From the human T2T-CHM13v2.0 reference genome, Homo sapiens, in assembly GCF_009914755.1 (NCBI RefSeq), contig NC_060946.1: a DNA stretch of 64,000 nucleotides, one strand, 5' to 3'. The notes under the pieces were generated by a model. That model saw only the letters and a list, made by a program, of their open reading frames with translations. It was not told the origin of the DNA and did no database searches. Positions 392-29,430 of the stretch are shown here, one piece after another. The first letter of the stretch is position 1. Every line of letters starts with the position of its first letter. The translations under genes and the position numbers were made by a program.

Positions 392-767
392 GAGGGTTTG
401 AGACAGAATGAGGAGTGACTAATGTCTACAGGGTTTTTCTCTGGTCGGGGGTGATAAGACGTTCTACAATGGATTGCGAATTAAAATTGAATGTGCACAA
501 CCACAGGTATAGTAAAAGCCACTCAATTCATGACTTTTACTGGGGGAATCTTATGTGGCGCAGTCTCATGGAGACCACGGCAGACATAGTGAGAGAGAAA
601 AAGGTGAGTAAATATCTGAAACGGAGGCAGAAACAGAGAGAATGAAAAGCCCTGTGAATGGAAGGGAGAGCGAAAAGGGAAAATGGTCCCATTGACAAAT
701 GACAGATGTGAAACTGGGGTTCACATCAACAGTGTCACTGCCAGGAAGGAGGGTCATGCTAGCCATG

Positions 768-3749
768 TCACCGGTAGTGTGGCCCGCAGGGACGCCGACC
801 TGCTGGAGCGTCGTGCCAGCATGGGCTATGGCATCCACGTGGGCCAGCAGGAGGTTCCCGCTGCACAGCTGTGGGGTGAGGATAGACTGGGTGGTGATGT
901 CGGCCATTACAGGGGCCTCTTCTGCTGGCAAGAGTGTGACAGTAGCAAGTAGATGGACAGGCCTGCGTGTGAGGACGGAATGCAGGAGGGGCTCTTGTAC
1001 GGCTGGGTGTGGGGCCCTCATGGGAACCGTGGAGAAATGGCCAGGTAACTGCGTCATGTGGGCTAGTAGATTGGCCAGGGCTTCGAACTGAAGGACGATA
1101 ACGGGGAGTAGCTGTCAGGCCCTGGGAGTGCCTGAGTGTAAGTGGAGATGGGTTTGGGGTCACTGAGGGATGCGTGGGAGCCATCCCTGTATAGGTACAG
1201 GTCATAGGGAGATAGTCTCGTGAGGCCTGTGAGTGTCTAGGGTTGTCCTGGGTGCCTGGGGCTGACTGTGGCAGAAATCTGGGGAAGGCTGGAGAGAAGC
1301 TGGGAGACCCAGGAGAGTCCCTGAAGGCAGGGGTTGAAGAGGTGAAAGAAATGGGGGAGGGTTGCAGTAAGGTCCGTGAGTTTGTAGGTGATTCCTGGGT
1401 GCGGGAAGCTGACTCCAGGTGAAATCTGGAGATGGTTGGAGAGTAGCTGAGAGAGACAGAAGAGTCCCTGAGGGCTGGGGGTGAGAACATGAGGGAGACG
1501 GGGGAGTAAGTCAGTGAAATTCGTGAGTTCGGTGGTGTATCGTGGGTGCCTGGAACTGACTCCAGCTGGAATCTAGAGAAGTTTTGAGAGTAGCTGAAGG
1601 AGACACAAGAGTCCCTGTGGGCTGAGGGCAAAGACCTGAGAGAGACCAGGGAGGACCTCAGTGAAGTCTGTGAGTCTGTAGGTGATTCCGGAGTGTGGGA
1701 GGCTGACTCCCGCTGAAATCTGGGCGTGGTGGGAGAGTAGGTGGGACAGACAGGAGAGTCCCAGGGGGCTGGGGGTGAAGACATGAGAGAGACTGGGGAG
1801 TAACTCAGTGAAATTGCTGAGTTGGTTGGTGATACCTGGGTGCCTGGAACTGACCCCAGCTAAAATATGGGCATGGTTGGAGAGTAGCTGGGACACACAG
1901 GAGAGTCCCTGAGGGCTGGGGGTGAAGACATGAGCGAGACTGGGGAGTAACTGAGTGAAACTGGTGAGTTTGGTGGTGACTCCGGGGTGCCTGGAACTGA
2001 CTCCAGCTGAAATGTGGGCGTGGTTGGAGAGTAGCTGGGACAGACAGGAGAGTCCCTGAGGACTGGTGAAGACATGAGAGAGACTGGAGAGTAATTGAGT
2101 GAAATTGGTGAGTTTGGTGGTGATTCCTGGGTGCCTGGAACTGACACCCGCTGAAGTGTGGGCGTGGTTGGAGAGTAGCTGGGACACACAGGCGAGTCCC
2201 TGAGGGTTGGAGATAAAGACGTGCTAGAGACTGAGGAGTAACTGAGTGAAATTGGTGAGTTTGGTGGTGATTCCGGGGTGCCTGGAACGGACTCCAGCTG
2301 AAATGTGGGCGTGGTTGGAGAGTAGCTGGGACAGACGGGAGAGTCCCTGAGGGATGGTGAAGACATGAGAGAGACTGGGGAGTAACGCAGTGAAATTGGT
2401 GAGTTTGGTGGTGATTTCTGGGTGCCTGCAACGGACTCCCGCTGAAGTGTGGGCGTGTTTGGAGAGTAGCTGGGACAGACAGGCGAGTCCCTGAGGGTTG
2501 GAGATAAAGACGTGCTGGAGACTGGGGAGTAACTCAGTGAAAGTGGTGGGCTTGGTGGTGATCCCAGGGTTCCTGGAACTGACCCGCGCTGAAATGTGGG
2601 CGTGGTTGGAGAGTAGCTAGGACAGACTGGAGGGTCCGTAAGGGCTGGGGGTGAAGACGTGAGAGAGACTGGCGAGGATCTCACTGAGGTCTGTGAGTTT
2701 GTAGGTGTTTCTGGGGTGTGGGGTACAGACTCCCGCTGAAATCTGGGCGTAGTTGGAGAGTAGCTGGGACAGACAGGAGAGTCATGGGTGGCTGGGGGTG
2801 AGCTGCTGGATGATGGCAGTAAGAACATATGGTACATTATTGATGAATGAGGTGACTGTGAAGAATCTCCAGAGGAGGACACGGGAGAACACAATGACAT
2901 GAGTGACTGTCCTGCTTGGTTAGGAAAGGGAAACGTAAAGTTGTGGAATTCTGTTGATGATGGATGTGAGAGTGGTGAAGCCCTGCGGGATGATGTAGAG
3001 CACTTCCACATCCCTGGTGAGGAGCTGCCCCTTGGGTCTGAGTTTCTGGGAGGGGAGAGGGAGAAGCTGGGTGAGGCAGGCATGAATCTTGAGGAGTCAG
3101 GGCTGGGGGACCGCTCATATTCTCCCGAGAGCTGTGAGTCTCTGGGGGACTCCTGGGTGCATGGGGCTGACTCCCGCAGGAACCTGGGGATGGCTGGAGA
3201 GTAACTGGGAGCCACAGGAGGGTCCCTGAGGCCTGGGGGTGAAGAGATGCAAGACACAGGGGTGGAGCAGCGTGAGGCTCGTGAGTTTGTAGGTGATTCC
3301 TGGGTGTGGGGGGCTGACTCCAGCTGAAATCTGGGGTTGTTTGGAGAGTAGCTGGGAGACACAGGAGACCCCCCGAGAGCTGGGGGTGAGCTGCTGGGTG
3401 ATGGCAGTAAGAACATGTGGTATATTATTGATGAACGTGGGGACTCTGAGGAGTCCTCAGAGGAGGACACGGCAGAGCCCAATGGCTTCATTGATTGCCC
3501 ATCACGGTAAGGACAGGGAAATGGGAGCTTGTGGGATTCTGGTGATGACAGAGGTGAGTGTGGTGAAGCCCAAGGGGATGGTGAATGGTAGTTCCGGATC
3601 CCTGGTGAGGAGCTTCCCCTTAAGCCTGAGTTTCTGAGAGGGGAGAGGGAGAAGCTGGGTGAGGCTCGCATGGACCTTGGGGTGTCCGTGCTGGGGGACC
3701 GTTCATAAGAAGAGCCAGACAAGACCCTACTGTTCTTAGGTGCAGACAT
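768..3749 (-). pseudogene. Unit 1 copy of the Ser/Pro-rich CTD-heptad-like repeat ORF, interrupted by a nonsense codon (629 aa instead of 993 aa)
   Basis: ORFs 1860..3749 and 768..1784 are in the same frame. The plus strand reads cta at 1860-1862 (TAG) where other units have ctg (CAG, Gln). The span of 2982 nt equals intact unit 8. Confidence 0.75.
1215..3720. repeat. 147/144-bp satellite array (ACRO1-type) of unit 1; an equivalent array lies under the long ORF in every unit
   Basis: ggttggagagtagctgggaca recurs at ~1875, 2022, 2166, 2313 (steps 147, 144, 147). Central monomers are near-identical and flanking monomers are diverged. Confidence 0.9.
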
Positions 3750-3810
3750 GATTAGGAAACCTGCAGCTCCCAGGGGCCCCTACTAATGTTCTAACTCGAA
3801 GAATGAAGGA

Positions 3811-3866
3811 GTGTGTGTGCGTGTGTGCGTGTGCGTGTGAGTGTGTGTTTGTGTGTGTGCGGTGTG
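3811..3866. repeat. Imperfect (TG)n microsatellite in the putative 5' leader/intron; present in every unit with variable length
   Basis: gtgtgtgtgcgtgtgtgcgtgtgcgtgtg... read directly. Confidence 0.95.
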
Positions 3867-3909
3867 AGGTATGTGCCCCTTAAGAAAATGGAAATCAAGC
3901 AACCAATGG

Positions 3910-3934
3910 GACAGACAGACAGACAGACAGACAG
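3910..3934. repeat. (GACA)n microsatellite; about 5-7 copies depending on unit
   Basis: gacagacagacagacagacagacag read directly. Confidence 0.95.
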
Positions 3935-4057
3935 AGATTCACTTGCCCAAGTGTTCTGTCCTGTCCTCTGAATCCGCTTCCAAGTCGCAAGACGCTGTGA
4001 GCTCCAAGTCCACACAGAGTCCGCCAAACGCTCCGGCCGCTGATCCGCTCCGCGAAG

Positions 4058-4129
4058 ATCTGAGTACAGGCCAGCCAGGGTGGGTTTAAATAGCCTCGGG
4101 CGCAGCCTAGCAGCGGAAAGGGCGGAGCT
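4058..4129 (-). promoter_or_regulatory. Putative Pol II core promoter of unit 1: GC box, TATA box, Inr
   Basis: On the minus strand TATTTAAA is at 4092-4085 and Inr TCA(+1)GATC has its A at 4061, 31 nt from the first T of the TATA box. GGGCGGAGC is at 4120-4128. The region is locally CpG-rich. Confidence 0.65.
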
Positions 4130-4679
4130 TCACTCCTCCTTTCCATCGGTCACCCCCAACTTTCCCAGGCTACACCTCGTAGGAAACTGTTCTCCTGCTT
4201 TGATTTCATGCGCCACCTTTGGGACAATCTAAGAACTTACAGGTTTTCTTGGCCAGATTTATTAGGAATTGTATGCACTGAAACACTGAAAACCAACTAG
4301 TGGTTCTGTGCTTCCCACGTTGTGGTTTTGACACCAGCAGCATCCTTGCCACAATCAAACCCCGGAGATCCGCAGATCTGTGTTGTAACAAGACCTCCCC
4401 CTGACCCTGATGCATGGCAGTTGAAGAAGTCTTTCCGTGTAAGCAAAAAGACTTCGAAGAAAAGGTGGAGATATGCGTAGTATAAACATTCTTTGGCTCT
4501 GGAACCACGTAGAGACTTGGGAGCCAGTTGGGTGGAGCATTCGTTGGATGAGGGTGCTCGGGTTAGGAATATCAAGGTGTGGCTCCAGATAATCCAATCA
4601 TCTAATTAAGATTCCAGTTATGCTCATCTGTTTTAAAATTCCGTTTGGGTAAATTCTTTTAGTCAGACTGAGAATGGCA

Positions 4680-5140
4680 AAGCCTCAACCCCAATTTCCA
4701 GGGAGGGTGGAGAGCCTCAGGTGGAGTTGATCACCAATAGCCGATGGTTTAACCCATCATGCCTATAGAATGAGGTCTCCATCAAAACCCATAAGGACTG
4801 GGTTCAGAGAGCTTCTGGATAACACTTCCTGGAAGGTAGCGCGCCCCTCCCCACATTCCGGGCCCCACATTTATTTCTGAACTTTGTGCAATGTCCGCAA
4901 AAATACAACGGCAAATGTAAGTGTTTCCCTGCGTGCTGTGAGCTCTTCCAGCAAATGAATGCAACTAAATCTGGGAGTGGTGGCAACCTGATTTATAGCC
5001 AGTTGCTGAGAAGCACAGGTAAAACAACGTAGGGCTTCCCATTGTTATTATTGTCGGAGGTGTGTCTGGCGGGACTCGGCCCTTTGGAATCTAATGCTAT
5101 GTCCCGGTAGATAGCGTCACCATTGAATTAGAAGACACAC
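4680..5140 (+). mobile_element. MER21-family LTR fragment; repeated in every unit
   Basis: gagttgatcaccaat...atcatgcctat...ctccatcaaaaccc...ggttcagagagcttc...gtaagtgtttccctg...gatttatagccagttg...agaagcacaggtaaaacaac...gaattagaagacac match the recalled MER21 consensus. Boundaries are approximate. Confidence 0.7.
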
Positions 5141-5309
5141 ATATGTGGAGAATAATCTTTCTGGTCATTTGCTGCATGTCTTATTTACAATATGTAATCA
5201 AATTCTTTATCCTGACTTTGTGGCACCTGGGTTGAGAACCATGATTTGAACCAAACGTTGGTCTGTCACTTTCTGAGTTTGAAACTTTATTTTGCCTTTA
5301 GCGTTTTGC

Positions 5310-5615
5310 TATTGCTTTTTCGTTTTCTTTTGTTTCGTTTCGTTTCTAAGTTCTGGGGTATATGTGCAGGATGTGCAGATTTGTTACTAAGGTAAACGTG
5401 TGCCATGGTGGTTTGCTGCACCTGTCAACCCGTCACCTAGGTATTAAGCCCAGCATGCAGTAGCTGTTTTTCTTAACGCTCTGCCTCCCGAAAGGCCCCA
5501 GTGTGTGTTGTTCCCCTTCCTGTGTCCATGGGATCTCACTTTTCAGCTCCCATTATAAGTGAGAAGGTGGCGTTTGGTTTTCTTTCCCTGGATTAGTTTG
5601 CTGACGATAATGACC
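5310..5615 (-). mobile_element. 5'-truncated L1PA 3' end (older L1PA, roughly L1PA8-13) with decayed poly(A); also at ~11470, 18069, 24390, 30993, 37596, 43913, 50221, 56830, 63438
   Basis: A T-rich tail is followed by aagttctggggtatatgtgcagg...gtgtgccatggtggtttgctgcacc...ctaggtattaagcccagcatgca...cccagtgtgtgttgttcccc...tataagtgagaa, the antisense of the L1PA 3' UTR. Confidence 0.85.
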
Positions 5616-5629
5616 ACACATCACCACTG

Positions 5630-5664
5630 TTTTTGTTTTTTAGTATAAAGAGTAGTATTTTATT
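5630..5664 (-). terminator. Putative polyadenylation signal AATAAA with downstream A-rich and GT-rich tract; also at 11819, 18418, 24739, 31342, 37945, 44262, 50570, 57179, 63787
   Basis: The minus strand reads AATAAA (5664-5659), then 17 nt, then aaaaaacaaaaac-agtggtgatgtgtggt. It lies ~1.4 kb downstream of the stop codon of the next unit's ORF. Confidence 0.45.
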
Positions 5665-6003
5665 GAATAAGATTTGCTCACAGAAAAATAAGCTTAAATC
5701 TACAATGAATGCCAGACCCTACAGCAGAAAGCAATTTTCTCACTTTTCCACACACAATGGTTCCTACTAAGTGAAAAAAAAGCCATAAAATTTCATTCAC
5801 AAATGTACTACTCTGTCTCAAAACATCTCACATAATCATGCACTGTTCTAAACCCATTAGATCAGTTCTTCAGTCAGGTTAAAGAAGTATCCCTCTAATA
5901 ACTGACTTTTATAATGCTATCAATATCCACTCCCAATCAGTCTGCCATTGTTAATGGTGTACAGCATTACTGAATACAATGGAATTGATGACGCCCATAT
6001 CCA

Positions 6004-6135
6004 CAGACAAACCGTGACTTATGATGGTTTGATTTATGATTTTTCAACGTTATGATGGGTTTATTGGAATATTAGATTCGTTTCTGAGTTACACTGGGTT
6101 TATGAGTATGCGACCCTATACTCCAGAAACAGCTG
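6004..6135. mobile_element. MER47/Tigger5-like TcMar-Tigger DNA transposon remnant; in every complete unit
   Basis: gacttatgatggtttgacttatgatttttcaac...tatgatgggtttat resembles the recalled MER47 terminal sequence and ends cagctg-ta. Confidence 0.5.
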
Positions 6136-6360
6136 TATAAGGAAAAACAGGTGTACCTAATAAAAATATGCTTAGTGACTTGGGGTAAACCAATAGATGT
6201 TCACAAGTGATGGAGAGCCGTGAAAGAGAGATAGCGGTAAATAGTTACAATAACACAATTTTCCTGCACCTGTCGAGGATTTCCCCCAAAAAACGCAGAA
6301 TGTGGGATGCACCTAAGGCATGTGAAAGAGAGAGGGCAGAAGGAGTAAGAGAGAAATAAG

Positions 6361-6465
6361 AGGAAGGAAGGAAGAAAGGAAGGAAGGAAGGAAGGAAGGA
6401 AAGAAGCAAGCTAGGACGGAAGGAAGGAAGGAAGGAAGGGAGGAAAGAAGGACGAAAGGAAGGAG
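6361..6465. repeat. (GGAA)n compound microsatellite; variable length in each unit (also ~12520, 19118, 25440, 32043, 38646, 44963, 51271, 57880)
   Basis: aggaaggaaggaag... read directly. Confidence 0.95.
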
Positions 6466-6519
6466 AAAACACCGGTGTTACTAAAACCCCACAAAAAATG
6501 GTTTCCCCCTGTGGGTAAG

Positions 6520-6855
6520 CCTACAATGTGGATGAACCTTGAAAATATTGTGCTACGTGTTATGTCAGTCATAGCAGCTCACCTATTGTGCAATTCCGTT
6601 TATAGGAAATGTCCACAATATGGAAATCTATGCATATGGGATTGATCGCACTAGGTAGTTGCTACCTAGGGCTGAGGGTCAGGGAGAGGGTTTGAGACAG
6701 AATGAGGAGTGACTAATGTCTACAGGGTTTTTCTCTGGTCGGGGGTGATAAGACGTTCTACAATGGATTGCGAATTAAAATTGAATGTGCACAACCACAG
6801 GTATACTAAAAGCCACTCAATTCATGACTTTTAATGGGGGAATCTTATGTGGCGC
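6520..6855 (+). mobile_element. Ancient L1M (L1MB/L1MC-type) 3' fragment; in every unit and truncated at the unit 1 junction
   Basis: ggatgaaccttgaaaatattgtgcta...tattgtgcaattccgtttataggaaatgtcc...tagggctgaggg...gagtgactaat...tgcacaac...tatactaaaagccact are typical old L1M 3' end motifs. Confidence 0.65.
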
Positions 6856-7061
6856 AGTCTCATGGAGACCACGGCAGACATAGTGAGAGAGAAAAAGGTG
6901 AGTAAATATCTGAAACGGAGGCAGAAACAGAGAGAATGAAAAGCCCTGTGAATGGAAGGGAGAGCGAAAAGGGAAAATGGTCCTATTTACAAATGACAGA
7001 TGTGAAACTGGGGTTCACATCAACAGTGTCACTGCCAGGAAGGAGGGTCATGCTAGCCATG

Positions 7062-9899
7062 TCACCGGTAGTGTGGCCCGCAGGGACGCCGACCTGCTGG
7101 AGCGTCGTGCCAGCATGGGCTATGGCATCCACGTGGGCCAGCAGGAGGTTCCCGCTGCACAGCTGTGGGGTGAGGATAGACTGGTTGGTGATATCGGCCA
7201 TTACAAGGGCCTCTTCTGCTGGCAAGAGTGTGACAGTAGCAAGTAGATGGACAGGCCTGCGTGTGAGGACGGAATGCAGGAGGGGTTCTTGTGCGCCTGG
7301 GTGTGGGGCCCTCACGGGAACCGTGGAGAAATGGCCAGGTAACTGCGTCATGTGGGCTAGTAGATTGGCCGGGGCTTCGAACTGAAGGACGATAACGGGG
7401 AGTAGCTGTCAGGCCCTGGGAGTGCCTGAGTGTAAGTGGAGATGGGTTTGGGGTCACTGAGGGATGCGTGGGAGCCATCCCTGTATAGGTACAGGTCATA
7501 GGGAGATAGTCTCGTGAGGCCTGTGAGTGTCTAGGGTTGTCCTGGGTGCCTGGGGCTGACTGTGGCAGAAGTCTGGGGAAGGCTGGAGAGAAGCTGGGAG
7601 ACCCAGGAGAGTCCCTGAAGGCAGGGGGTGAAGAGGTGAAAGAAATGGGGGAGGGTTGCAGTAAGGTCCGTGAGTTTGTAGGTGATTCCTGGGTGCGGGA
7701 AGCTGACTCCAGGTGAAATCTGGAGATGGTTGGAAAGTAGCTGAGAGAGACAGAAGAGTCCCTGAGGGCTGTGGGTGAGAACATGAGGGAGACGGGGGAG
7801 TAAGTCAGTGAAATTCGTGAGTTCGGTGGTGTATCGTGGGTGCCTGGAACTGACTCCAGCTGGAATCTAGAGAAGTTTTGAGAGTAGCTGAAGGAGACAC
7901 AAGAGTCCCTGTGGGCTGAGGGCAAAGACCTGAGACAGACCAGGGAGGACCTCAGTGAAGTCTGTGAGTCTGTAGGTGATTCCGGAGTGTGGGAGGCTGA
8001 CTCCCGCTGAAATCTGGGCGTGGTGGGAGAGTAGGTGGGACAGACAGGAGAGTCCCAGGGGGCTGGGGGTGACCACGTGAGAGAGACTGGGGAGTAACTC
8101 AGTGAAATTGCTGAGTTGGTTGGTGATACCTGGGTGCCTGGAACAGACCCCCGCTGAAATCTGGGCATGGTTGGAGAGTAGCTGGGACACAAAGGAGAGT
8201 CCCTGAGGGCTGGGGGTGAAGACATGAGCGAGACCGGGGAGTAACTGAGTGAAACTGGTGAGTTTGGTGGTGACACCGGGGTGCCTGGAACCGACTCCCG
8301 CTGAAGTGTGGGCGTGGTTGGAGAGTAGCTGGGACACACAGGAGAGTCCCTGAGGGTTGGAGATAAAGACGTGCTAGAGACTGAGGAGTAACTGAGTGAA
8401 ATTGGTGAGTTTGGTGGTGATTCCGGGGTGCCTGGAACGGACTCCAGCTGAAATGTGGGCGTGGTTGGAGAGTAGCTGGGACAGACGGGAGAGTCCCTGA
8501 GGGATGGTGAAGACATGAGAGAGACTGGGGAGTAACGCAGTGAAATTGGTGAGTTTGGTGGTGATTTCTGGGTGCCTGCAACGGACTCCCGCTGAAGTGT
8601 GGGCGTGTTTGGAGAGTAGCTGGGACAGACAGGCGAGTCCCTGAGGGTTGGAGATAAAGACGTGCTGGAGACTGGGGAGTAACTCAGTGAAAGTGGTGGG
8701 CTTGGTGGTGATCCCAGGGTTCCTGGAACTGACCCGCGCTGAAATGTGGGCGTGGTTGGAGAGTAGCTGGGACAGACTGGAGGGTCCGTTAGGGCTGGGG
8801 GTGAAGACGTGAGAGAGACTGGCGAGGATCTCACTGAGGTCTGTGAGTTTGTAGGTGTTTCTGGGGTGTGGGGTACAGACTCCCGCTGAAATCTGGGCGT
8901 AGTTGGAGAGTAGCTGGGACAGACAGGAGAGTCATGGGTGGCTGGGGGTGAGCTGCTGGATGATGGCAGTAAGAACATATGGTACATTATTGATGAATGA
9001 GGTGACTGTGAAGAATCTCCAGTGGAGGACACGGGAGAACACAATGACATGAGTGACTGTCCTGCTTGGTTCGGAAAGGGAAACGTAAAGTTGTGGAATT
9101 CTGTTGATGATGGATGTGAGAGTGGTGAAGCCCTGCGGGATGATGTAGAGGACTTCCACATCCCTGGTGAGGAGCTGCCCCTTGGGTCTGAGTTTCTGGG
9201 AGGGGAGAGGGAGAAGCTGGGTGAGGCAGGCATGAATCTTGAGGAGTCAGGCCTGGGGGACGGCTCATATTCTCCCGAGACCTGTGAGTCTCTGGGGGAC
9301 TCCTGGGTGCATGGGACTGACTCCCGCTGGAACCTGGGCATGGCTGGAGAGTAACTGGGAGCCACAGGAGGGTCCCTGAGGACTGGGGTTGAAGAGATGA
9401 AAGACACAGGGGTGGAGCAGCGTGAGGCTCGTGAGTTTGTAGGTGATTCCTGGGTGTGGGGGGCTGACTCCAGGTGAAATCTGGGGTTGTTTGGAGAGTA
9501 GCTGGGAGACACAGCAGACCCCCCGAGAGCTGGGGGTGATCTGCTGGGTGATGGCAGTAAGAACATGTGGCATATTATTGATGAACGTGGGGACTCTGAG
9601 GAATCCTCAGAGGAGGACACGTGAGAGCCCAATGGCTTCATTGATTGCCCATCACGGTGAGGACAGGGAAATGGGAGCTTGTGGGATTCTGGTGATGGCA
9701 GAGGTGAGTGTGGTGAAGCCCTAGGGGCTGCTGAATGGTAGCTCCGGATCCCTGGTGAGGAGCTTCCCCTTAAGCCTGAGTTTCTGAGAGGGGAGAGGGA
9801 GAAGCTGGGTGAGGCTCGCATGGACCTTGGGGTGTCCGTGCTGGGGGACCGTTCATAAGAAGAGCCAGACAAGACCCTACTGTTCTTAGGTGCAGACAT
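7062..9899 (-). CDS. Full-length Ser/Pro-rich CTD-heptad-like repeat protein, 945 aa (unit 2; one 144-bp monomer fewer than unit 8)
   Basis: Uninterrupted ORF MSAPKNS...PCGPHYR. Start context aatcATGt has A at -3. TATA at 10245-10252. Coding status is inferred. Confidence 0.55.
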   Translation of the reverse strand: MSAPKNSRVLSGSSYERSPSTDTPRSMRASPSFSLSPLRNSGLRGSSSPGIRSYHSAAPRASPHSPLPSPESHKLPFPCPHRDGQSMKPLGSHVSSSEDSSESPRSSIICHMFLLPSPSRSPPALGGSAVSPSYSPNNPRFHLESAPHTQESPTNSRASRCSTPVSFISSTPVLRDPPVAPSYSPAMPRFQRESVPCTQESPRDSQVSGEYEPSPRPDSSRFMPASPSFSLSPPRNSDPRGSSSPGMWKSSTSSRRASPLSHPSSTEFHNFTFPFPNQAGQSLMSLCSPVSSTGDSSQSPHSSIMYHMFLLPSSSSSPPATHDSPVCPSYSPTTPRFQRESVPHTPETPTNSQTSVRSSPVSLTSSPPALTDPPVCPSYSPTTPTFQRGSVPGTLGSPPSPPLSLSYSPVSSTSLSPTLRDSPVCPSYSPNTPTLQRESVAGTQKSPPNSPISLRYSPVSLMSSPSLRDSPVCPSYSPTTPTFQLESVPGTPESPPNSPISLSYSSVSSTSLSPTLRDSPVCPSYSPTTPTLQRESVPGTPVSPPNSPVSLSYSPVSLMSSPPALRDSPLCPSYSPTMPRFQRGSVPGTQVSPTNSAISLSYSPVSLTWSPPAPWDSPVCPTYSPTTPRFQRESASHTPESPTDSQTSLRSSLVCLRSLPSAHRDSCVSFSYSQNFSRFQLESVPGTHDTPPNSRISLTYSPVSLMFSPTALRDSSVSLSYFPTISRFHLESASRTQESPTNSRTLLQPSPISFTSSPPAFRDSPGSPSFSPAFPRLLPQSAPGTQDNPRHSQASRDYLPMTCTYTGMAPTHPSVTPNPSPLTLRHSQGLTATPRYRPSVRSPGQSTSPHDAVTWPFLHGSREGPTPRRTRTPPAFRPHTQACPSTCYCHTLASRRGPCNGRYHQPVYPHPTAVQREPPAGPRGCHSPCWHDAPAGRRPCGPHYR

Positions 9900-10217
9900 G
9901 ATTAGGAAACCAGCAGCTCCCAGGGGCCCCTACTAGTGTTCTAACTCGCAGAAGGAAGGAGTGTGTGTGCGTGTGTGCGTGTGCGTTTGTGTGTGTGTGT
10001 GTGTTTGTGTGTGTGCGGTGTGAGGTATGGGCCCCTTAAGAAAATGGAAATCAACCAACCAATGGGACAGACAGACAGACAGACAGACAGACAGAGATTC
10101 ACTTGCCCAAGTGTTCTGTCTTGTCCTCTGAATCCGCTTCCAAGTCGCAAGACGCTGTGAGCTCCAAGTCCACGCAGAGTCCGCCAAACGCTCCGGTCGC
10201 TGATCCGCTCCGCGAAG

Positions 10218-10289
10218 ATCTGAGTACAGGCCAGCCAGGGTGGGTTTAAATAGCCTCGGGCGCAGCCTAGCAGCGGAAAGGGCGGAGCT
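10218..10289 (-). promoter_or_regulatory. Putative core promoter of unit 2
   Basis: TATTTAAA at 10252-10245, Inr A at 10221, GC box at ~10280. Confidence 0.6.
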
Positions 10290-13233
10290 TCACTCCTCCT
10301 TTCCATCAGTCACCCCCAACTTTCCCAGGCTACACCTCGTAGGAAACTGTTCTCCTGCTTTGATTTCATGCGCCACCTTTGGGACAATCTAAGAACTTAC
10401 AGGTTTTCTTGGCCAGATTTATTAGGAATTGTATGCACTGAAACACTGAAAACCAACTAGTGGTTCTGTGCTTCCCACGTTGTGGTTTTGACACCAGCAG
10501 CATCCTTGCCACAATCAAACCCCGGAGATCCGCAGATCTGTGTTGTGACAAGACCTCCCCCTGACCCTGATGCATGGCAGTTGAAGAAGTCTTTCCGTGT
10601 AAGCAAAAAGACTTTGAAGAAAAGGTGGAGATATGCGTTGTATAAACATTCTTTTGCTCTGGAACCACGTAGAGACTTGGGAGCCAGTTGGGTGGAGCAT
10701 TCGTTGGATGAGGGTGCTCAGGTTAGGAATATCAAGGTTTTTCTCCAGATAATCCAATCATCTAATTAAGATTCCAGTTATGCTCATCTGTTTTAAAATT
10801 CCGTTTGGGTAAATTCTTTTAGTCAGACTGAGAATGGCAAAGCCTCAACCCCAATTTCCAGGGAGGGTGGAGAGCCTCAGGTGGAGTTGATCACCAATAG
10901 CCTATGGTTTAACCCATCATGCCTATAGAATGAGGTCTCCATCAAAACCCAAAAGGACTGGGTTCAGAGAGCTTCTGGATAACACTTCCTGGAAGTTAGT
11001 GCACCCCTCCCCGCATGCCGGGCCCCACATTTATTTCTGAACTTTGTGCAATGTCCGCTAAAATACAACGGCAAATGTAAGTGTTTCCCTGCGTGCTGTG
11101 AGCTCTTCCAGCAAATGAATGCAACTAAATCTGGGAGTGGTGGCAACCTGATTTATAGCCAGTTGCTGAGAAGCACAGGTAAAACAACGTAGGGCTTCCC
11201 ATTGTTATTGGTGTGGGAGGCCTGTCTGGCGGGACTCGGCCCTTTGGAATCTAATGCTATGTCCCGGTAGATAGCGTCACCATTGAATTAGAAGACACAC
11301 ATATGTGGAGAATAATCTTTCTGGTCATTTACTGCATGTCATATTTACAATATGTAATCAAATTCTTTATCCTGACCTTATGGCACCTGGGTTTAGGACC
11401 ATGATTTGAACCAAACGTTGGTCTGTCACTTTCTGAGTTTGAAACTTTATTTTGCCTTTAGCGTTTTGCTATTGCTTTTTCGTTTTCTTTTGTTTCGTTT
11501 CGTTTCTAAGTTCTGGGGTATATGTGCAGGATGTGCAGATTTGTTACTAAGGTAAACGTGTGCCATGGTGGTTTGCTGCACCTGTCAACCCGTCACCTAG
11601 GTATTAAGCCCAGCATGCAGTAGCTGTTTTTCTTAACGCTCTGCCTCCCGAAAGGCCCCAGTGTGTGTTGTTCCCCTTCCTGTGTCCATGGGATCTCACT
11701 TTTCAGCTCCCATTATAAGTGAGAAGGTGGCGTTTGGTTTTCTTTCCCTGGATTAGTTTGCTGACGATAATGACCACACATCACCACTGTTTTTGTTTTT
11801 TAGTATAAAGAGTAGTATTTTATTGAATAAGATTTGCTCACAGAAAAATAAGCTTAAATCTACAATGAATGCCAGACCCTACAGCAGAAAGCAATTTTCT
11901 CACTTTTCCACACACAATGGTTCCTACTAAGTGAAAAAAAAGCCATAAAATTTCATTCACAAATGTACTACTCTGTCTCAAAACATCTCACGTAATCATG
12001 CACTGTACTAAAGCCATCAGATCAGTTCTTCAGTCAGGTTAAAGAAGTATCCCTCTAATAACTGACTTTTATAATGCTATCAATATCCACTCCCAATCAG
12101 TCTGCCATTGTTAATGGTGTACAACATTACTGAATACAACGGAATTGATGACGCCCATATCCACAGACAAACCGAGACTTATGATGGTTTGATTTATGAT
12201 TTTTCAACGTTATGATGGGTTTATTGGAATATTAGATTCGTTTCTGAGTTACACTGGGTTTATGAGTATGCGACCCTACACTCCAGAAACAGCTGTATAA
12301 GGAAAAACAGGTGTACCTAATAAAAATATGCTTAGTGACTTGGGATAAACCAATAGATGTTCACAAGTGATGGAGAGCCGTGAAAGAGAGATAGCGGTAA
12401 ATAGTTACAATAACACAACTTTCCTGCACCTGTCGAGGATTTCCTCCAAAAAACGCAGAATGTGGGATGCACCTAAGGCATATGAAAGAGAGAGGGCAGA
12501 AGGAGTAAGAGAGAAATAGGAGGAAGGAAGGAAGGAAGCAAGGAAGAAAGGAAGGAAGGAAAGAAGGAAGGTAGGACGGAAGGAAGGAAGGAAGGAAGGA
12601 AGGAAGGAAGGAAGGAAGGAAGGATGAAAGGAAGGAGAAAACACCGGTGTTACTAAAACTCCCCAAAAAATGGTTTCCCCCTGTGGGTAAGCCTACAATG
12701 TGGATGAATCTTGAAAATATTGTGCTACGTGTTATGTCAGTCATAGCAGCTCACCTATTGTGCAATTCCGTTTATAGGAAATGTCCACAATATGGAAATC
12801 TATGCATATGGGATTGATCGCACTAGGTAGTTGCTACCTAGGGCTGAGGGTCAGGGAGAGGGTTTGAGACAGAATGAGGAGTGACTAATGTCTACAGGGT
12901 CTTTCTCTGGTCGGGGGTGATAAGACGTTTTACAATGGATTGCGAATTAAAATTGAATGTGCACAACCACAGGTATACTAAAAGCCACTCAATTCATGAC
13001 CTTTAATGGGGGAATCTTACGTGGCGTAGTCTCATGGAGACCACGGCAGACATAGTGAGAGAGAAAAAGGTGAGTAAATATCTGAAACGGAGGCAGAAAC
13101 AGAGAGAATGAAAAGCCCTGTGAATGGAAGGGAGAGCGAAAAGGGAAAATGGTCCTATTTACAAATGACAGATGTGAAACTGGGGTTCACATCAACAGTG
13201 TCACTGCCAGGAAGGAGGGTCATGCTAGCCATG

Positions 13234-16506: not shown

Positions 16507-16816
16507 GATTAGGAAACCTGCAGCTCCCAGGGGCCCCCACTAATGTTCTAACTCGCAGAAGGAAGGAGTGTGTGTGCGTGTGTGCGTGTGCGTGTGTGTG
16601 TGTGTGTTTGTGTGTGTGCGGTGTGAGGTATGGGCCCCTTAAGGAAATGGAAATCAACCAACCAATGGGACAGACAGACAGACAGACAGACAGAGATTCA
16701 CTTGCCCAAGTGTTCTGTCCTGTCCTCTGAATCCGCTTTCAAGTCGCAAGACGCTGTGAGCTCCAAGTCCACGCAGAGTCCGCCAAACGCTCCGGCCGCT
16801 GATCCGCTCCGCGAAG

Positions 16817-16888
16817 ATCTGAGTACAGGCCAGCCAGGGTGGGTTTAAATAGCCTCGGGCGCAGCCTAGCAGCGGAAAGGGCGGAGCT
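16817..16888 (-). promoter_or_regulatory. Putative core promoter of unit 3
   Basis: TATTTAAA at 16851-16844, Inr A at 16820, GC box upstream. Confidence 0.6.
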
Positions 16889-19800
16889 TCACTCCTCCTT
16901 TCCATCAGTCACCCCCAACTTTCCCAGGCTACACCTCGTAGGAAACTGTTCTCCTGCTTTGATTTCATGCGCCACCTTTGGGACAATCTAAGAACTTACA
17001 GGTTTTCTTGGCCAGATTTATTAGGAATTGTATGCACTGAAACACTGAAAACCAACTAGTGGTTCTGTGCTTCCCACGTTGTGGTTTTGACACCAGCAGC
17101 ATCCTTGCCACAATCAAACCCCGGAGATCCGCAGATCTGTGTTGTAACAAGACCTCCCCCTGACCCTGATGCATGGCAGTTGAAGAAGTCTTTCCGTGTA
17201 AGCGAAAAGACTTTGAAGAAAAGGTGGAGATATGCGTAGTATAAACATTCTTTGGCTCTGGAACCACGTAGAGACTTGGGAGACAGTTGCGTGGAGCATT
17301 CGTTGGATGAGGGTGCTCGGGTTTGGAATATCAAGGTGTTTCTCCAGATAATCCAATCATCTAATTAAGATTCCAGTTATGCTCATCTGTTTTAAAATTC
17401 CGTTTGGGTAAATTCTTTTAGTCAGACTGAGAATGGCAAAGCCTCAACCCCAATTTCCAGGGAGGGTGGAGAGCCTCAGGTGGAGTTGATCACCAATAGC
17501 CTATGGTTTAACCCATCATGCCTATAGAATGAGGTCTCCATCAAAACCCAAAAGGACTGGGTTCAGAGAGCTTCTGGATAACACTTCCTGGAAGGTAGTG
17601 CACCCCTCCCCGCATGCCGGGCCCCACATTTATTTCTGAACTTTGTGCAATGTCCGCTAAAATACAACGGCAAATGTAAGTGTTTCCCTGCGTGCTGTGA
17701 GCTCTTCCAGCAAATGAATGCAACTAAATCTGGGAGTGGTGGCAACCTGATTTATAGCCAGTTGCTGAGAAGCACAGGTAAAACAACGTAGGGCTTCCCA
17801 TTGTTATTGGTGTGGGAGGCCTGTCTGGCGGGACTCGGCCCTTTGGAATCTAATGCTATGTCCCGGTAGATAGCGTCACCATTGAATTAGAAGACACACA
17901 TATGTGGAGAATAATCTTTCTGGTCATTTACTGCATGTCATATTTACAATATGTAATCAAATTCTTTATCCTGACCTTATGGCACCTGGGTTTAGGACCA
18001 TGATTTGAACCAAACGTTGGTCTGTCACTTTCTGAGTTTGAAACTTTATTTTGCCTTTAGCGTTTTGCTATTGCTTTTTCGTTTTCTTTTGTTTCGTTTC
18101 GTTTCTAAGTTCTGGGGTATATGTGCAGGATGTGCAGATTTGTTACTAAGGTAAACGTGTGCCATGGTGGTTTGCTGCACCTGTCAACCCGTCACCTAGG
18201 TATTAAGCCCAGCATGCAGTAGCTGTTTTTCTTAACGCTCTGCCTCCCGAAAGGCCCCAGTGTGTGTTGTTCCCCTTCCTGTGTCCATGGGATCTCACTT
18301 TTCAGCTCCCATTATAAGTGAGAAGGTGGCGTTTGGTTTTCTTTCCCTGGATTAGTTTGCTGACGATAATGACCACACATCACCACTGTTTTTGTTTTTT
18401 AGTATAAAGAGTAGTATTTTATTGAATAAGATTTGCTCACAGAAAAATAAGCTTAAATCTACAATGAATGCCAGACCCTACAGCAGAAAGCAATTTTCTC
18501 ACTTTTCCACACACAATGGTTCCTACTAAGTGAAAAAAAAGCCATAAAATTTCATTCACAAATGTACTACTCTGTCTCAAAACATCTCACGTAATCATGC
18601 ACTGTACTAAAGCCATCAGATCAGTTCTTCAGTCAGGTTAAAGAAGTATCCCTCTAATAACTGACTTTTATAATGCTATCAATATCCACTCCCAATCAGT
18701 CTGCCATTGTTAATGGTGTACAGCATTACTGAATACAACGGAATTGATGACGCCCATATCCACAGACAAACCGTGACTTATGATGGTTTGACTTATGATT
18801 TTTCAACGTTATGATGGGTTTATTGGAATATTAGATTCGTTTCTGAGTTACACTGGGTTTATGAGTATGCGACCCTACACTCCAGAAACAGCTGTATAAG
18901 GAAAAACAGGAGTACCTAATAAAAATATGCTTAGTGACTTGGGATAAACCAATAGATGTTCACAAGTGATGGAGAGTCGTGAAAGAGAGATAGCGGTAAA
19001 TAGTTACAATAACACAATTTTCCTGCACCTGTCGAGGATTTCCCCCAAAAAACGCAGAATGTGGGATGCACCTAAGGCATATGAAAGAGAGAGGGCAGAA
19101 GGAGTAAGAGAGAAATAGGAGGAAGGAAGGAAGGAAGCAAGCAAGGAAGAAAGGAAGGAAGGAAAGAAGGAAGGAAGGACGGAAGGAAGGAAGGAAGGAA
19201 GGAAGGAAGGAAGGAAGGAAGGAAAGAAGGATGAAAGGAAGGAGAAAACACCGGTGTTACTAAAACCCCCCAAAAAATGGTTTCCCCCTGTGGGTAAGCC
19301 TACAATGTGGATGAATCTTGAAAATATTGTGCTACGTGTTATGTCAGTCATAGCAGCTCACCTATTGTGCAATTCCGTTTATAGGAAATGTCCACAATAT
19401 GGAAATCTATGCATATGGGATTGATCGCACTAGGTAGTTGCTACCTAGGGCTGAGGGTCAGGGAGAGGGTTTGAGACAGAATGAGGAGTGACTAATGTCT
19501 ACAGGGTCTTTCTCTGGTCGGGGGTGATAAGACGTTTTACAATGGATTGCGAATTAAAATTGAATGTGCACAACCACAGGTATACTAAAAGCCACTCAAT
19601 TCATGACCTTTAATGGGGGAATCTTACGTGGCGTAGTCTCATGGAGACCACGGCAGACATAGTGAGAGAGAAAAAGGTGAGTAAATATCTGAAACGGAGG
19701 CAGAAACAGAGAGAATGAAAAGCCCTGTGAATGGAAGGGAGAGCGAAAAGGGAAAATGGTCCTATTTACAAATGACAGATGTGAAACTGGGGTTCACATC

Positions 19801-26592: not shown

Positions 26593-29430
26593 TCATAGGG
26601 AGATAGTCTCGTGAGGCCTGTGAGTGTCTAGGGTTGTCCTGGGTGCCTGGGGCTGACTGTGGCAGAAATCTGGGGAAGGCTGGAGAGAAGCTGGGAGACC
26701 CAGGAGAGTCCCTGAAGGCAGGGGTGAAGAGGTGAAAGAAATGGGGGAGGGTTGCAGTAAGGTCCGTGAGTTTGTAGGTGATTCCTGGGTGCGGGAAGCT
26801 GACTCCAGGTGAAATCTGGAGATGGTTGGAGAGTAGCTGAGAGAGACAGAAGAGTCCCTGAGGGCTGGGGGTGAGAACATGAGGGAGACGGGGGAGTAAG
26901 TCAGTGAAATTCGTGAGTTCGGTGGTGTATCGTGGGTGCCTGGAACTGACTCCAGCTGGAATCTAGAGAAGTTTTGAGAGTAGCTGAAGGAGACACAAGA
27001 GTCCCTGTGGGCTGAGGGCAAAGACCTGAGACAGACCAGGGAGGACCTCAGTGAAGTCTGTGAGTCTGTAGGTGATTCCGGAGTGTGGGAGGCTGACTCC
27101 CGCTGAAATCTGGGCGTGGTGGGAGAGTAGGTGGGACAGACAGGAGAGTCCCAGGGGGCTGGGGGTGACGACGTGAGAGAGACTGGGGAGTAACTCAGTG
27201 AAATTGCTGAGTTGGTTGGTGATACCTGGGTGCCTGGAACTGACCCCCGCTGAAATCTGGGCATGGTTGGAGAGTAGCTGGGACACACAGGAGAGTCCCT
27301 GAGGGCTGGGGGTGAAGACATGAGCGAGACCGGGGAGTAACTGAGTGAAACTGGTGAGTTTGGTGGTGACTCCGGGGTGCCTGGAACTGACTCCAGCTGA
27401 AATGTGGGCGTGGTTGGAGAGTAGCTGGGACAGACAGGAGAGTCCCTGAGGACTGGTGAAGACATGAGAGAGACTGGAGAGTAATTGAGTGAAATTGGTG
27501 AGTTTGGTGGTGATTCCTGGGTGCCTGGAACTGACTCCCGCTGAAGTGTGGGTGTGGTTGGAGAGTAGCTGGGACACACAGGAGAGTCCCTGAGGGTTGG
27601 AGATAAAGACGTGCTAGAGACTGAGGAGTAACTGAGTGAAATTGGTGAGTTTGGTGGTGATTCCGGGGTGCCTGGAACGGACTCCTGCTGAAATGTGGGC
27701 GTGGTTGGAGAGTAGCTGGGACAGACGGGAGAGTCCCTGAGGGATGGTGAAGACATGAGAGAGACTGGGGAGTAACGCAGTGAAATTGGTGAGTTTGGTG
27801 GTGATTTCTGGGTGCCTGCAACGGACTCCCGCTGAAGTGTGGGCGTGCTTGGAGAGTAGCTGGGACAGACAGGCGAGTCCCTGAGGGTTGGAGATAAAGA
27901 CGTGCTAGAGACTGAGGAGTAACTGAGTGAAATTGGTGAGTTTGGTGGTGATTCCGGGGTGCCTGGAACGGACTCCAGCTGAAATGTGGGCGTGGTTGGA
28001 GAGTAGCTGGGACAGACGGGAGAGTCCCTGAGGGATGGTGAAGACATGAGAGAGACTGGGGAGTAACGCAGTGAAATTGGTGAGTTTGGTGGTGATTTCT
28101 GGGTGCCTGCAACGGACTCCCGCTGAAGTGTGGGCGTGCTTGGAGAGTAGCTGGGACAGACAGGCGAGTCCCTGAGGGTTGGAGATAAAGACGTGCTGGA
28201 GACTGGGGAGTAACTCAGTGAAAGTGGTGGGCTTGGTGGTGATCCCAGGGTTCCTGGAACTGACCCGCGCTGAAATGTGGGCGTGGTTGGAGAGTAGCTG
28301 GGACAGACTGGAGGGTCCGTAAGGGCTGGGGGTGAAGACGTGAGAGAGACTGGCGAGGATCTCACTGAGGTCTGTGAGTTTGTAGGTGTTTCTGGGGTGT
28401 GGGGTACAGACTCCCGCTGAAATCTGGGCGTAGTTGGAGAGTAGCTGGGACAGACAGGAGAGTCATGGGTGGCTGGGGGTGAGCTGCTGGATGATGGCAG
28501 TAAGAACATATGGTACATTATTGATGAATGAGGTGACTGTGAAGAATCTCCAGAGGAGGACACGGGAGAACACAATGACATGAGTGACTGTCCTGCTTGG
28601 TTAGGAAAGGGAAACGTAAAGTTGTGGAATTCTGTTGATGATGGATGTGAGAGTGGTGAAGCCCTGCGGGATGATGTAGAGGACTTCCACATCCCTGGTG
28701 AGGAGCTGCCCCTTGGGTCTGAGTTTCTGGGAGGGGAGAGGGAGAAGCTGGGTGAGGCAGGCATGAATCTTGAGGAGTCAGGACTGGGGGACCGCTCATA
28801 TTCTCCCGAGACCTGTGAGTCTCTGGGGGACTCCTGGGTGCATGGGGCTGACTCCCGCAGGAACCTGGGGATGGCTGGAGAGTAACTGGGAGCCACAGGA
28901 GGGTCCCTGAGGCCTGGGGGTGAAGAGATGCAAGACACAGGGGTGGAGCAGCGTGAGGCTCGTGAGTTTGTAGGTGATTCCTGGGTGTGGGGGGCTGACT
29001 CCAGCTGAAATCTGGGGTTGTTTGGAGAGTAGCTGGGAGACACAGGAGAACCCCCGAGAGCTGGGGGTGAGCTGCTGGGTGATGGCAGTAAGAACATGTG
29101 GTATATTATTGATGAACGTGGGGACTCTGAGGAGTCCTCAGAGGAGGACACGGCAGAGCCCAATGGCTTCATTGATTGCCCATCACGGTGAGGACAGGGA
29201 AATGGGAGCTTGTGGGATTCTGGTGATGACAGAGGTGAGTGTGGTGAAGCCCTAGGGGATGGTGAATGGTAGTTCCGGATCCCTGGTGAGGAGCTTCCCC
29301 TTAAGCCGGAGTTTCTGAGAGGGGAGAGGGAGAAGCTGGGTGAGGCTCGCATGGACCTTGGGGTGTCCGTGCTGGGGGACCGTTCATAAGAAGAGCCAGA
29401 CAAGACCCTACTGTTCTTAGGTGCAGACAT
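26593..29430 (-). pseudogene. Frameshifted copy, 945 aa with an alternative tail ending HETISL (unit 5)
   Basis: G5 is reduced to G4 at 26721-26724, with a second +1 at 26306-26308. TATA at 29768-29775. Confidence 0.55.

What the first reader, a model, noticed from the sequence alone, without database searches (positions are those of the whole stretch)
4058..4129. Textbook GC box / TATA(-31) / Inr core promoter facing the satellite ORF
Seen: the minus strand reads gctccgccc ... TATTTAAA cccaccctggctggcctgtac TCAGATC. The Inr matches YYANWYY fully and its A lies 31 nt from the first T of the TATA box. No ATG occurs between that A (4061) and the ORF start (3749). The region is CpG-rich and not in a recognisable transposon. 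The arrangement is kept in 9 of 10 units. Established: -30/-31 is the preferred TATA spacing. Inference: a real, probably methylation-controlled, promoter. This evidence is independent of the ORF argument.
Basis: partly seen in the sequence, partly recalled or inferred. Interest (0 to 1): 0.7.

Follow-up and report, generated by a model that had tools for sequence, protein, structure and literature searches.

The report
Embryo gene promoter inside ACRO satellite
A TATA-type promoter motif repeated in about 200 copies of a human 'satellite' unit sits in front of a long reading frame shared with monkeys and below a site that the early-embryo factor DUX4 binds in a related copy, so the unit is likely a tandemly multiplied gene that would switch on in cleavage-stage embryos.

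Summary
The array is the known 6-kb ACRO composite (ACRO1 satellite). '9 of 10' is not independent evidence (units 97-98% identical), and the TATA has one mismatch to consensus. Better evidence came from elsewhere. In 15 paralogs up to 17% diverged, -80..+10 is the least-changed window (12 changes, 26 expected). A DUX4-type site at -539 maps onto a published DUX4 ChIP-seq peak in the chr2 paralog, and DUX4 raises ACRO1 RNA 15.8-fold. The ATG and C-terminus are shared with a marmoset 832-aa model and an unnamed 40%-identical homolog lacking the tandem array. A likely 5'-UTR intron and a polyA hexamer complete a gene. The coding exon shows weak homology to POLR2A's last two exons. Against: no start site was observed, chr14 units amplified a weakened TATA, pN/pS is near 1, and many copies (including this unit) are truncated. 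Verdict: likely a real promoter of a multiplied, DUX4-responsive gene; protein function untested.

The parts
4590..4600 (+). DUX4-type 11-mer TAATCCAATCA at -539..-529 from the Inr A; consensus-fitting in 7 of 10 units (other 3 have one change)
   Evidence: homologous site in the chr2 paralog lies under a published DUX4 ChIP-seq peak; consensus TAAYYYAATCA is recalled
4120..4128 (-). GC box (reverse GGGCGG core), -67..-59
4085..4092 (-). TATA-like box TATTTAAA, first T at -31; one mismatch to TATAWAWR
   Evidence: >75% of wild-type activity in a purified yeast system (PMC2396422 passages)
4057..4063 (-). Initiator TCAGATC, predicted +1 A at 4061
   Evidence: 0 changes in 15 paralogs
3947..4061 (-). 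predicted non-coding exon 1 (about 115 nt, CpG-rich)
   Evidence: inferred from donor-like site
3791..3946 (-). predicted 5'-UTR intron with (TCTG)n and (CA)n; donor is GC-type here but GT in 8 of the 11 dispersed paralogs L029-L039; alternative donor at 3942, alternative acceptors at 3795 and 3761
   Evidence: splicing not shown
1860..3749 (-). ORF of this unit, 629 aa, cut short by a stop; S/P-rich, A at -3 of the ATG
1246..2801 (-). ACRO1 147-bp array, read in frame as 48/49-aa modules
   Evidence: named from match to the description in PMC7714431
13234..17359 (-). an intact unit: DUX4-type site 17349-17359, TATA-Inr 16816-16851, 1090-aa ORF 16506-13234 to the ancestral stop
7062..10760 (-). 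second intact unit: DUX4-type site 10750-10760, TATA-Inr 10217-10252, 945-aa ORF 9899-7062
6830..6835 (-). ATTAAA candidate polyA signal about 226 nt after the stop of the 9899-7062 ORF

Best explanation
The GC box-TATA-Inr cluster is likely the real RNA polymerase II core promoter of a gene that has been tandemly multiplied as the ACRO composite, and DUX4 bound about 540 bp upstream likely switches it on in cleavage-stage embryos. Shown: the motifs and spacing, about 200 genomic copies, reduced change at the core among paralogs, DUX4 ChIP signal on the homologous site of the chr2 paralog, DUX4-induced and 4-cell-peaking ACRO1 RNA (literature), and an ORF with the same start and end in monkey gene models. 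Inferred: germline hypomethylation leaves the small CpG patch open; DUX4 recruits co-activators; TBP/TFIID uses TATTTAAA to start at the Inr A; a 115-nt non-coding exon splices to one coding exon that runs through the ACRO1 array to an ATTAAA; somatic methylation and RNA-mediated elongation block (Boots 2020) keep it silent elsewhere. The product would be a disordered S/P-rich protein with degenerate heptads, probably descended from a copy of the 3' end of POLR2A.
For: Motifs and spacing; GC+TATA+Inr chance 0.002 near the ATG. 216 copies at <=3 mismatches vs 0 control; exact TATA-21-Inr 205 vs 17 control. 15 paralogs, tree length 0.47: TATA+Inr 1 change vs 5.1 expected, P=0.037; -80..+10 12 vs 26.0, P=0.002, lowest of 1071 overlapping 90-bp windows. 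DUX4 peak hg19 chr2:162,137,020-400, height 151, 2 motifs (PMC3836709 Table S1); 5 of 5 neighbouring peaks tested gave offsets 398,153-398,266 and the paralog site 398,203. ACRO1 RNA 15.8x up with DUX4, ACRO1 itself unbound (Table S2). 4-cell peak (PMC6545021); germline hypomethylation (PMC5832720). Marmoset 832-aa model, 71% over aa 1-330, same Met and C-terminus; Piliocolobus model; unnamed P0014, 38-45%, same Met, one module, leader also homologous; chr2 paralog has an intact 358-aa ORF, 97.8% to an unnamed NCBI protein. Splice donors and acceptor are closer to consensus in dispersed paralogs. 21-nt/7-aa periodicity and ungapped 44-aa match to POLR2A's penultimate exon starting in the leader (1, 17, 48 of 2000 shuffles).
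Against: No mapped 5' end: none of the 32 four-cell-up TFEs in PMC4569847 fell on a paralog I could recognise, six coordinate prefixes found nothing relevant in 7 files; the NET-CAGE table could not be opened. RNA near the chr2 peak was not significantly induced (log2FC 2.62, FDR 0.87). 28 of 34 listed chr14 distal units lack the exact TATA+Inr; 3 of 3 aligned have AATTTAAA and a changed GC box. GC box and DUX4 site alone are not significantly conserved (P 0.19, 0.20). pN/pS 0.66-2.10 in 24 of 25 paralog pairs; only 3 of 10 window ORFs and 5 of 23 readable outside copies reach the ancestral stop, and this unit stops at 629 aa. No stable ACRO1 RNA in HeLa, and ACRO1 RNA blocks elongation in cis (PMC7714431). 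RefSeq annotates no gene here. POLR2A homology is not found at database scale nor for the 3'UTR or introns.
Confidence: 0.68

Rival explanations
1. Fossil promoter: the motifs belonged to an ancestral single-copy gene, but in the acrocentric arrays they are carried passively by concerted evolution; the copies are pseudogenes and their RNA is non-coding leak from DUX4-opened chromatin.
For: TATA-weakened units spread on chr14; pN/pS near 1 and many truncated copies; donor degraded to GC in these arrays; no TFE found.
Against: 9 of 10 window ORFs stay >=945 aa and modules differ by whole codons; the ORF frame has 0 stops across one array vs 4-5 in the other two minus frames; core still the least-changed window.
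Confidence: 0.2
2. The promoter is real but makes a regulatory non-coding RNA (Pol II-binding aptamer array, nucleolar or heterochromatin role); the ORF is a by-product of its CTD-coding origin.
For: ACRO1 RNA binds Pol II and blocks elongation in cis; ACRO is the most acrocentric-specific repeat class; no purifying signal on protein.
Against: Frame kept from the same ATG in marmoset and in a 40%-identical homolog; a neutral 358-codon ORF would survive a 0.06 branch with P about 0.0015 under my assumed rates.
Confidence: 0.25
3. Chance motifs: no promoter here; ACRO1 RNA starts in the unit's MER21B or L1 pieces or reads through from neighbours.
For: TATA+Inr alone occurs in 77% of shuffled units; TATA is non-consensus; MER21B class is 3.1x enriched in DUX4 peaks.
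Against: Only one GC+TATA+Inr site exists in the unit, on the ORF strand, about 310-320 nt before the conserved ATG; conservation dip sits on it; the DUX4 peak is labelled unique sequence.
Confidence: 0.1

Closest known systems
ACRO composite / ACRE (ACRO1, L1PA10, MER21B, L1MB8; Boots 2020 PMC7714431; Hoyt preprint; 10.64898/2025.12.22.696095)
   Same: Same element: 147-bp arrays in a 6-kb unit on chr 3, 13, 14, 15, 21, 22 and dispersed. CTD-like translation, possible CTD-mRNA origin and a 'putative protein coding gene' are already in print.
   Different: In the passages read none describes a core promoter, a DUX4 site, exon-intron structure, or homologs without the array; Boots reports no non-primate ACRO1 homologue and treats the RNA as the active part.
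Macrosatellite-embedded genes (D4Z4/DUX4; RS447/USP17 and the chr5 TAF11-like array, the last two recalled)
   Same: A whole gene with its promoter is the repeat unit, silenced in soma, active in germline or cleavage embryo; many copies degenerate.
   Different: Here the coding exon itself holds a satellite, the product has no folded domain (no Pfam hit; Atlas model pLDDT 0.40), and protein expression is not shown.
DUX4-activated embryonic genome activation genes and repeat promoters (ZSCAN4, PRAMEF, TRIM48, MaLR promoters; PMC3836709, PMC8990217, PMC4569847)
   Same: DUX4 motif upstream, bound in ChIP, RNA up with DUX4 and at 4-cell stage.
   Different: Site is 540 bp upstream in non-LTR sequence; no mapped start site; induction near the one mappable peak was not significant.
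POLR2A (RPB1) linker and CTD
   Same: Heptad periodicity and a 44-codon in-register match to the penultimate exon; public models are named RPB1-like.
   Different: No perfect YSPTSPS in the three homologs counted, no polymerase domains, unrelated C-terminus, 3'UTR and promoter.

Membership tests
TATA/Inr Pol II core promoter | TATAWAWR-type box with first T at -30/-31 | tested here: inconclusive
   Position met; sequence has one mismatch; this 8-mer works in a purified yeast system, human activity untested
TATA/Inr Pol II core promoter | Inr consensus around +1 | tested here: met
   TCAGATC fits YYANWYY in 10 of 10 units
TATA/Inr Pol II core promoter | Sequence constraint on the core | tested here: met
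   12 vs 26.0 changes at -80..+10, P=0.002; weaker for single motifs; chr14 exception
TATA/Inr Pol II core promoter | Focused capped 5' ends and TBP dependence | not testable with these tools
   No raw CAGE/STRT access; published tables gave no hit or could not be opened
CpG island | >=200 bp, GC>50%, o/e>0.6 (loose) or >=500 bp, GC>55%, o/e>0.65 (strict); thresholds recalled | tested here: inconclusive
   Loose met (0.60, 0.85), strict not met (0.52, 0.60)
DUX4 target promoter | DUX4 motif bound in ChIP near the start | tested here: met
   For the chr2 paralog only; acrocentric copies absent from hg19
DUX4 target promoter | Transcript induced by DUX4 from this start | tested here: inconclusive
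   ACRO1 class 15.8x; locus-level FDR 0.87; start not mapped
ACRO composite | 147-bp arrays within a 6-kb tandem unit on acrocentric short arms | tested here: met
   no direct Dfam comparison possible
Protein-coding gene | ORF conserved across species from the same start | tested here: met
   (homologs are predicted models)
Protein-coding gene | Purifying selection on amino acids | tested here: not met
   pN/pS 0.66-2.10 among human paralogs over 190 codons, low counts
Protein-coding gene | Translation shown | not testable with these tools
   no Ribo-seq or proteomics access
POLR2A-derived gene | Homology outside the low-complexity heptads | tested here: inconclusive
   Penultimate exon: pairwise E 3e-5, DNA z 3.2-4.7; not with P0014, not at PDB scale, not for introns or 3'UTR
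LTR or other transposon promoter | Lies in an interspersed repeat | tested here: inconclusive
   Copy number equals ACRO count; upstream site labelled unique; no Dfam available

The most novel reading that the evidence does not exclude
The ACRO 'satellite' of human and ape acrocentric short arms is a roughly 200-copy, DUX4-driven, TATA-promoter gene family born from a copy of POLR2A's 3' end, which makes a long disordered CTD-like protein during embryonic genome activation that could act as a decoy or scaffold for CTD kinases and readers.
Probability: 0.3. Interest if true: 0.88.

Novelty: new member of a known kind. Interest (0 to 1): 0.62.

Why it matters
ACRO is the repeat most specific to ape acrocentric short arms, peaks at the 4-cell stage, answers to DUX4, changes copy number between generations, and is still handled as a satellite. 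Naming its start site, activator site and exon structure turns a bulk repeat signal into a gene that can be tested with a reporter, CRISPRi at one shared sequence, and peptides. If translated, it would be among the highest-copy human protein-coding families, missed because the arrays were absent from older assemblies, and relevant to embryo genome activation and to DUX4 disease (FSHD).

Tried and rejected
Using 9/10 units as evidence: rejected, units are near-identical. First paralog set was partly chosen by exact promoter match; 4 such loci were dropped from the 19-row alignment, leaving 15; four partial hits and L040 (no hit) were also left out. The chr2:161.74 Mb copy was hoped to be a processed retrocopy that would mark the start site; it is a genomic copy with promoter and intron. 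Pfam, Rfam on 500-7200, Atlas (best score 0.78, lead only), PDB sequence searches and a PF05001 genome search (control also silent) gave nothing useful. POLR2A 3'UTR as source of the C-terminus: score 31 vs 25.6+-3.8, rejected; POLR2A introns as source of promoter or leader intron: z -1.1 to 1.4, not supported. Published 5'-end tables: no hit; NET-CAGE table too large; one search matched only numeric noise. A strong DUX4 peak at hg19 chr4:49.51 Mb may be an ACRO copy but was not verified and is not used. Young Table S1 is cut in the held copy, so chr19 paralogs could not be checked. Hendrickson 2017 and the journal version of Hoyt 2022 were not held under the ids tried.

Full report
Observation. 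The minus strand shows GCTCCGCCC at 4128-4120, TATTTAAA at 4092-4085 and TCAGATC at 4063-4057, with 31 nt from the first T to the A at 4061. The TATA-Inr pair is in 9 of 10 units; the unit with Inr A at 55581 has TATGTAAA. The first ATG is 310-322 nt downstream in all 10. Three qualifiers apply. The box is one mismatch from TATAWAWR, though this 8-mer gave over 75% of wild-type signal in a purified yeast system (PMC2396422, passages). The CpG-rich patch is about 200 bp (o/e 0.85). The units are 96.9-98.3% identical here, so the count of 9 is one event. TATA+Inr alone appears in 77% of 400 shuffled units, but with a GC box in 1.5%, and in 0.2% of 3000 shuffles of the 1 kb before the ATG.

What the array is. 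Units of 6.2-6.6 kb with 147-bp arrays match the ACRO composite described as ACRE by Boots 2020 (PMC7714431; parts 1-3 of 5 and supplement part 1 read), by the Hoyt preprint (passages) and by the ape acrocentric preprint, which lists ACRO1, L1PA10, MER21B and L1MB8 (passages). The promoter 50-mer has 216 copies at up to 3 mismatches. [quoted passage not shown]

Is the core under constraint? Diverged paralogs on chr2, 19, 20, 21 and 22 were found by protein and DNA search, not by promoter match. After dropping 4 of 19 rows chosen for an exact promoter, 15 sequences (83-95% identical to this unit, tree length 0.47) remained. TATA+Inr had 1 parsimony change against 5.1 expected (P=0.037); GC box 4 vs 6.8 and DUX4-type site 3 vs 5.5 were not significant. 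Non-CpG sites at -80..+10 had 12 changes vs 26.0 (P=0.002), the lowest of 1071 overlapping windows, driven mostly by -80..-41. Poisson rates and a single tree are approximations for paralogs that exchange sequence. Against: 28 of the 34 chr14 distal units listed lack the exact TATA+Inr, and 3 of 3 aligned (4 fetched, one off target) read AATTTAAA with the GC box changed to a CACCC form.

An activator site. A DUX4-type 11-mer (consensus recalled) lies at -539 in 7 of 10 units; chance 1.75% per unit. Young 2013 (PMC3836709; passages and Tables S1, S2 rows) lists a DUX4 peak at hg19 chr2:162,137,020-400, height 151, two motifs, unique sequence. Five of five neighbouring peaks tested fell on DUX4-type motifs in CHM13 at offsets 398,153-398,266, and the paralog's site gives 398,203, so the peak is on the homologue of window 4590-4600. 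Reads from unassembled acrocentric copies may contribute. ACRO1 itself had 0 peaks and 1.1x ChIP signal but 15.8x RNA with DUX4, as expected if DUX4 binds upstream and transcription runs into the array. Local induction was not significant (FDR 0.87).

What it would drive. The ORF from 3749 is 629 aa in this unit, at least 945 aa in the other 9, and reaches the ancestral stop in 3 of 10. A marmoset model of 832 aa shares the first Met and the C-terminus (71% over aa 1-330), as does the N-terminus of a Piliocolobus model. An unnamed 355-aa protein, 38-45% identical, has one module, the same Met at residue 51 and a homologous leader; its species is unknown. The chr2 paralog carries an intact 358-aa form with no array. 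So ACRO1 is an internal expansion of an older gene. The donor at +116 is GC-type here but GT in dispersed paralogs, and the two most diverged have a canonical CAG acceptor and a perfect second donor; an ATTAAA follows the stop by about 226 nt. Against coding function: pN/pS 0.66-2.10 in 24 of 25 pairs, and only 5 of 23 readable outside copies reach the ancestral stop. All homologs are predicted models.

Origin. The module has 21-nt and 7-aa periodicity (lag 21: 0.414 vs 0.29+-0.05). The CTD-bearing locus on chr17 (named POLR2A from its heptads, name recalled) has a penultimate exon that aligns without gaps over 44 codons to the ACRO leader and N-terminus, starting 7 codons before the ATG (1, 17 and 48 of 2000 shuffles reach the score; pairwise E 3e-5; DNA z 3.2-4.7). 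This was noticed post hoc, fails with P0014 and at database scale, and introns and 3'UTR do not match. I put it at about 0.6. The promoter's origin is unexplained.

What is missing. No start site was observed. None of 32 four-cell-up 5' ends in PMC4569847 (table read whole) fell on a paralog I could recognise; coordinate searches of 7 files and a partial view of the 129-row table found none. Multicopy loci are probably lost in such unique mapping (inference). The NET-CAGE table of PMC8990217 could not be opened and may bear directly on this. Boots found no stable RNA in HeLa and showed that ACRO1 RNA blocks elongation in cis.

Novelty. Ten searches; 38 papers hold the word ACRO1, 32 were listed, and I read passages of nine of them. 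None of those passages describes this promoter, the DUX4 site, the intron or the array-less homolog; closed journals, unread supplements (for example Supplementary Figure 11 of PMC12746033) and genome-browser annotations were not seen. The kind (a gene as macrosatellite unit, DUX4 target) is known; this would be a new member. Confidence in a working promoter in at least some units 0.68; in a translated functional protein about 0.35.

Noticed in passing
L029:2833-3909 (G000:C2:161.74 Mb): Single dispersed paralog with intact promoter, DUX4 peak and an uninterrupted 358-aa ORF without the ACRO1 array; homology to the unit ends about 50 nt after the stop, in an Alu-like sequence. Best handle for experiments because it maps uniquely.
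   Followed up: partly
L030, L031, L035 (G000:C19:47.23-47.29 Mb): Inverted set of older paralogs on chr19 with a 4-nt insertion upstream of the TATA and perfect GT donor; homology upstream stops at -1080, so the 5' part of the acrocentric unit was added later or lost here.
   Followed up: partly
L037, L038 (G000:C22:5.72 Mb, C21:5.61 Mb): Most diverged paralogs (83%); keep TATA, Inr and DUX4-type site, lose the GC box core, and have the most canonical splice sites.
   Followed up: partly
L046, L047, L049 (G000:C14:22-205 kb): Most of the chr14 distal array carries a TATA first-base change and GC box to CACCC change: a natural promoter-variant array for allele-specific expression tests.
   Followed up: partly
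window:6361-6464: (GGAA)n microsatellite of 26-32 copies in every unit, about 2.3 kb upstream of the promoter; possible ETS-fusion response element, though EWS:FLI1 did not change ACRO1 in HeLa while ACRO1 RNA was raised in Ewing sarcoma plasma.
   Followed up: no
window:19980-22823, 26593-29430: Six of ten units share one of two C-terminal frameshifts (ends LASRRGPL or HETISL), so variant classes are interleaved in the array.
   Followed up: partly
window:45680-46159: The non-repetitive C-terminus is Cys/His-rich with a conserved CPSTCYCHTL block across all homologs; possible metal binding, no family match.
   Followed up: no
L029:2392-2402: A second near-consensus DUX4-type 11-mer about 145 bp upstream of the Inr in the chr2 paralog, altered in the window's units.
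   Followed up: no
window:3184-3749: The N-terminal 196 codons are duplicated in tandem in the acrocentric, marmoset and Piliocolobus forms but not in the chr2 paralog or P0014.
   Followed up: partly
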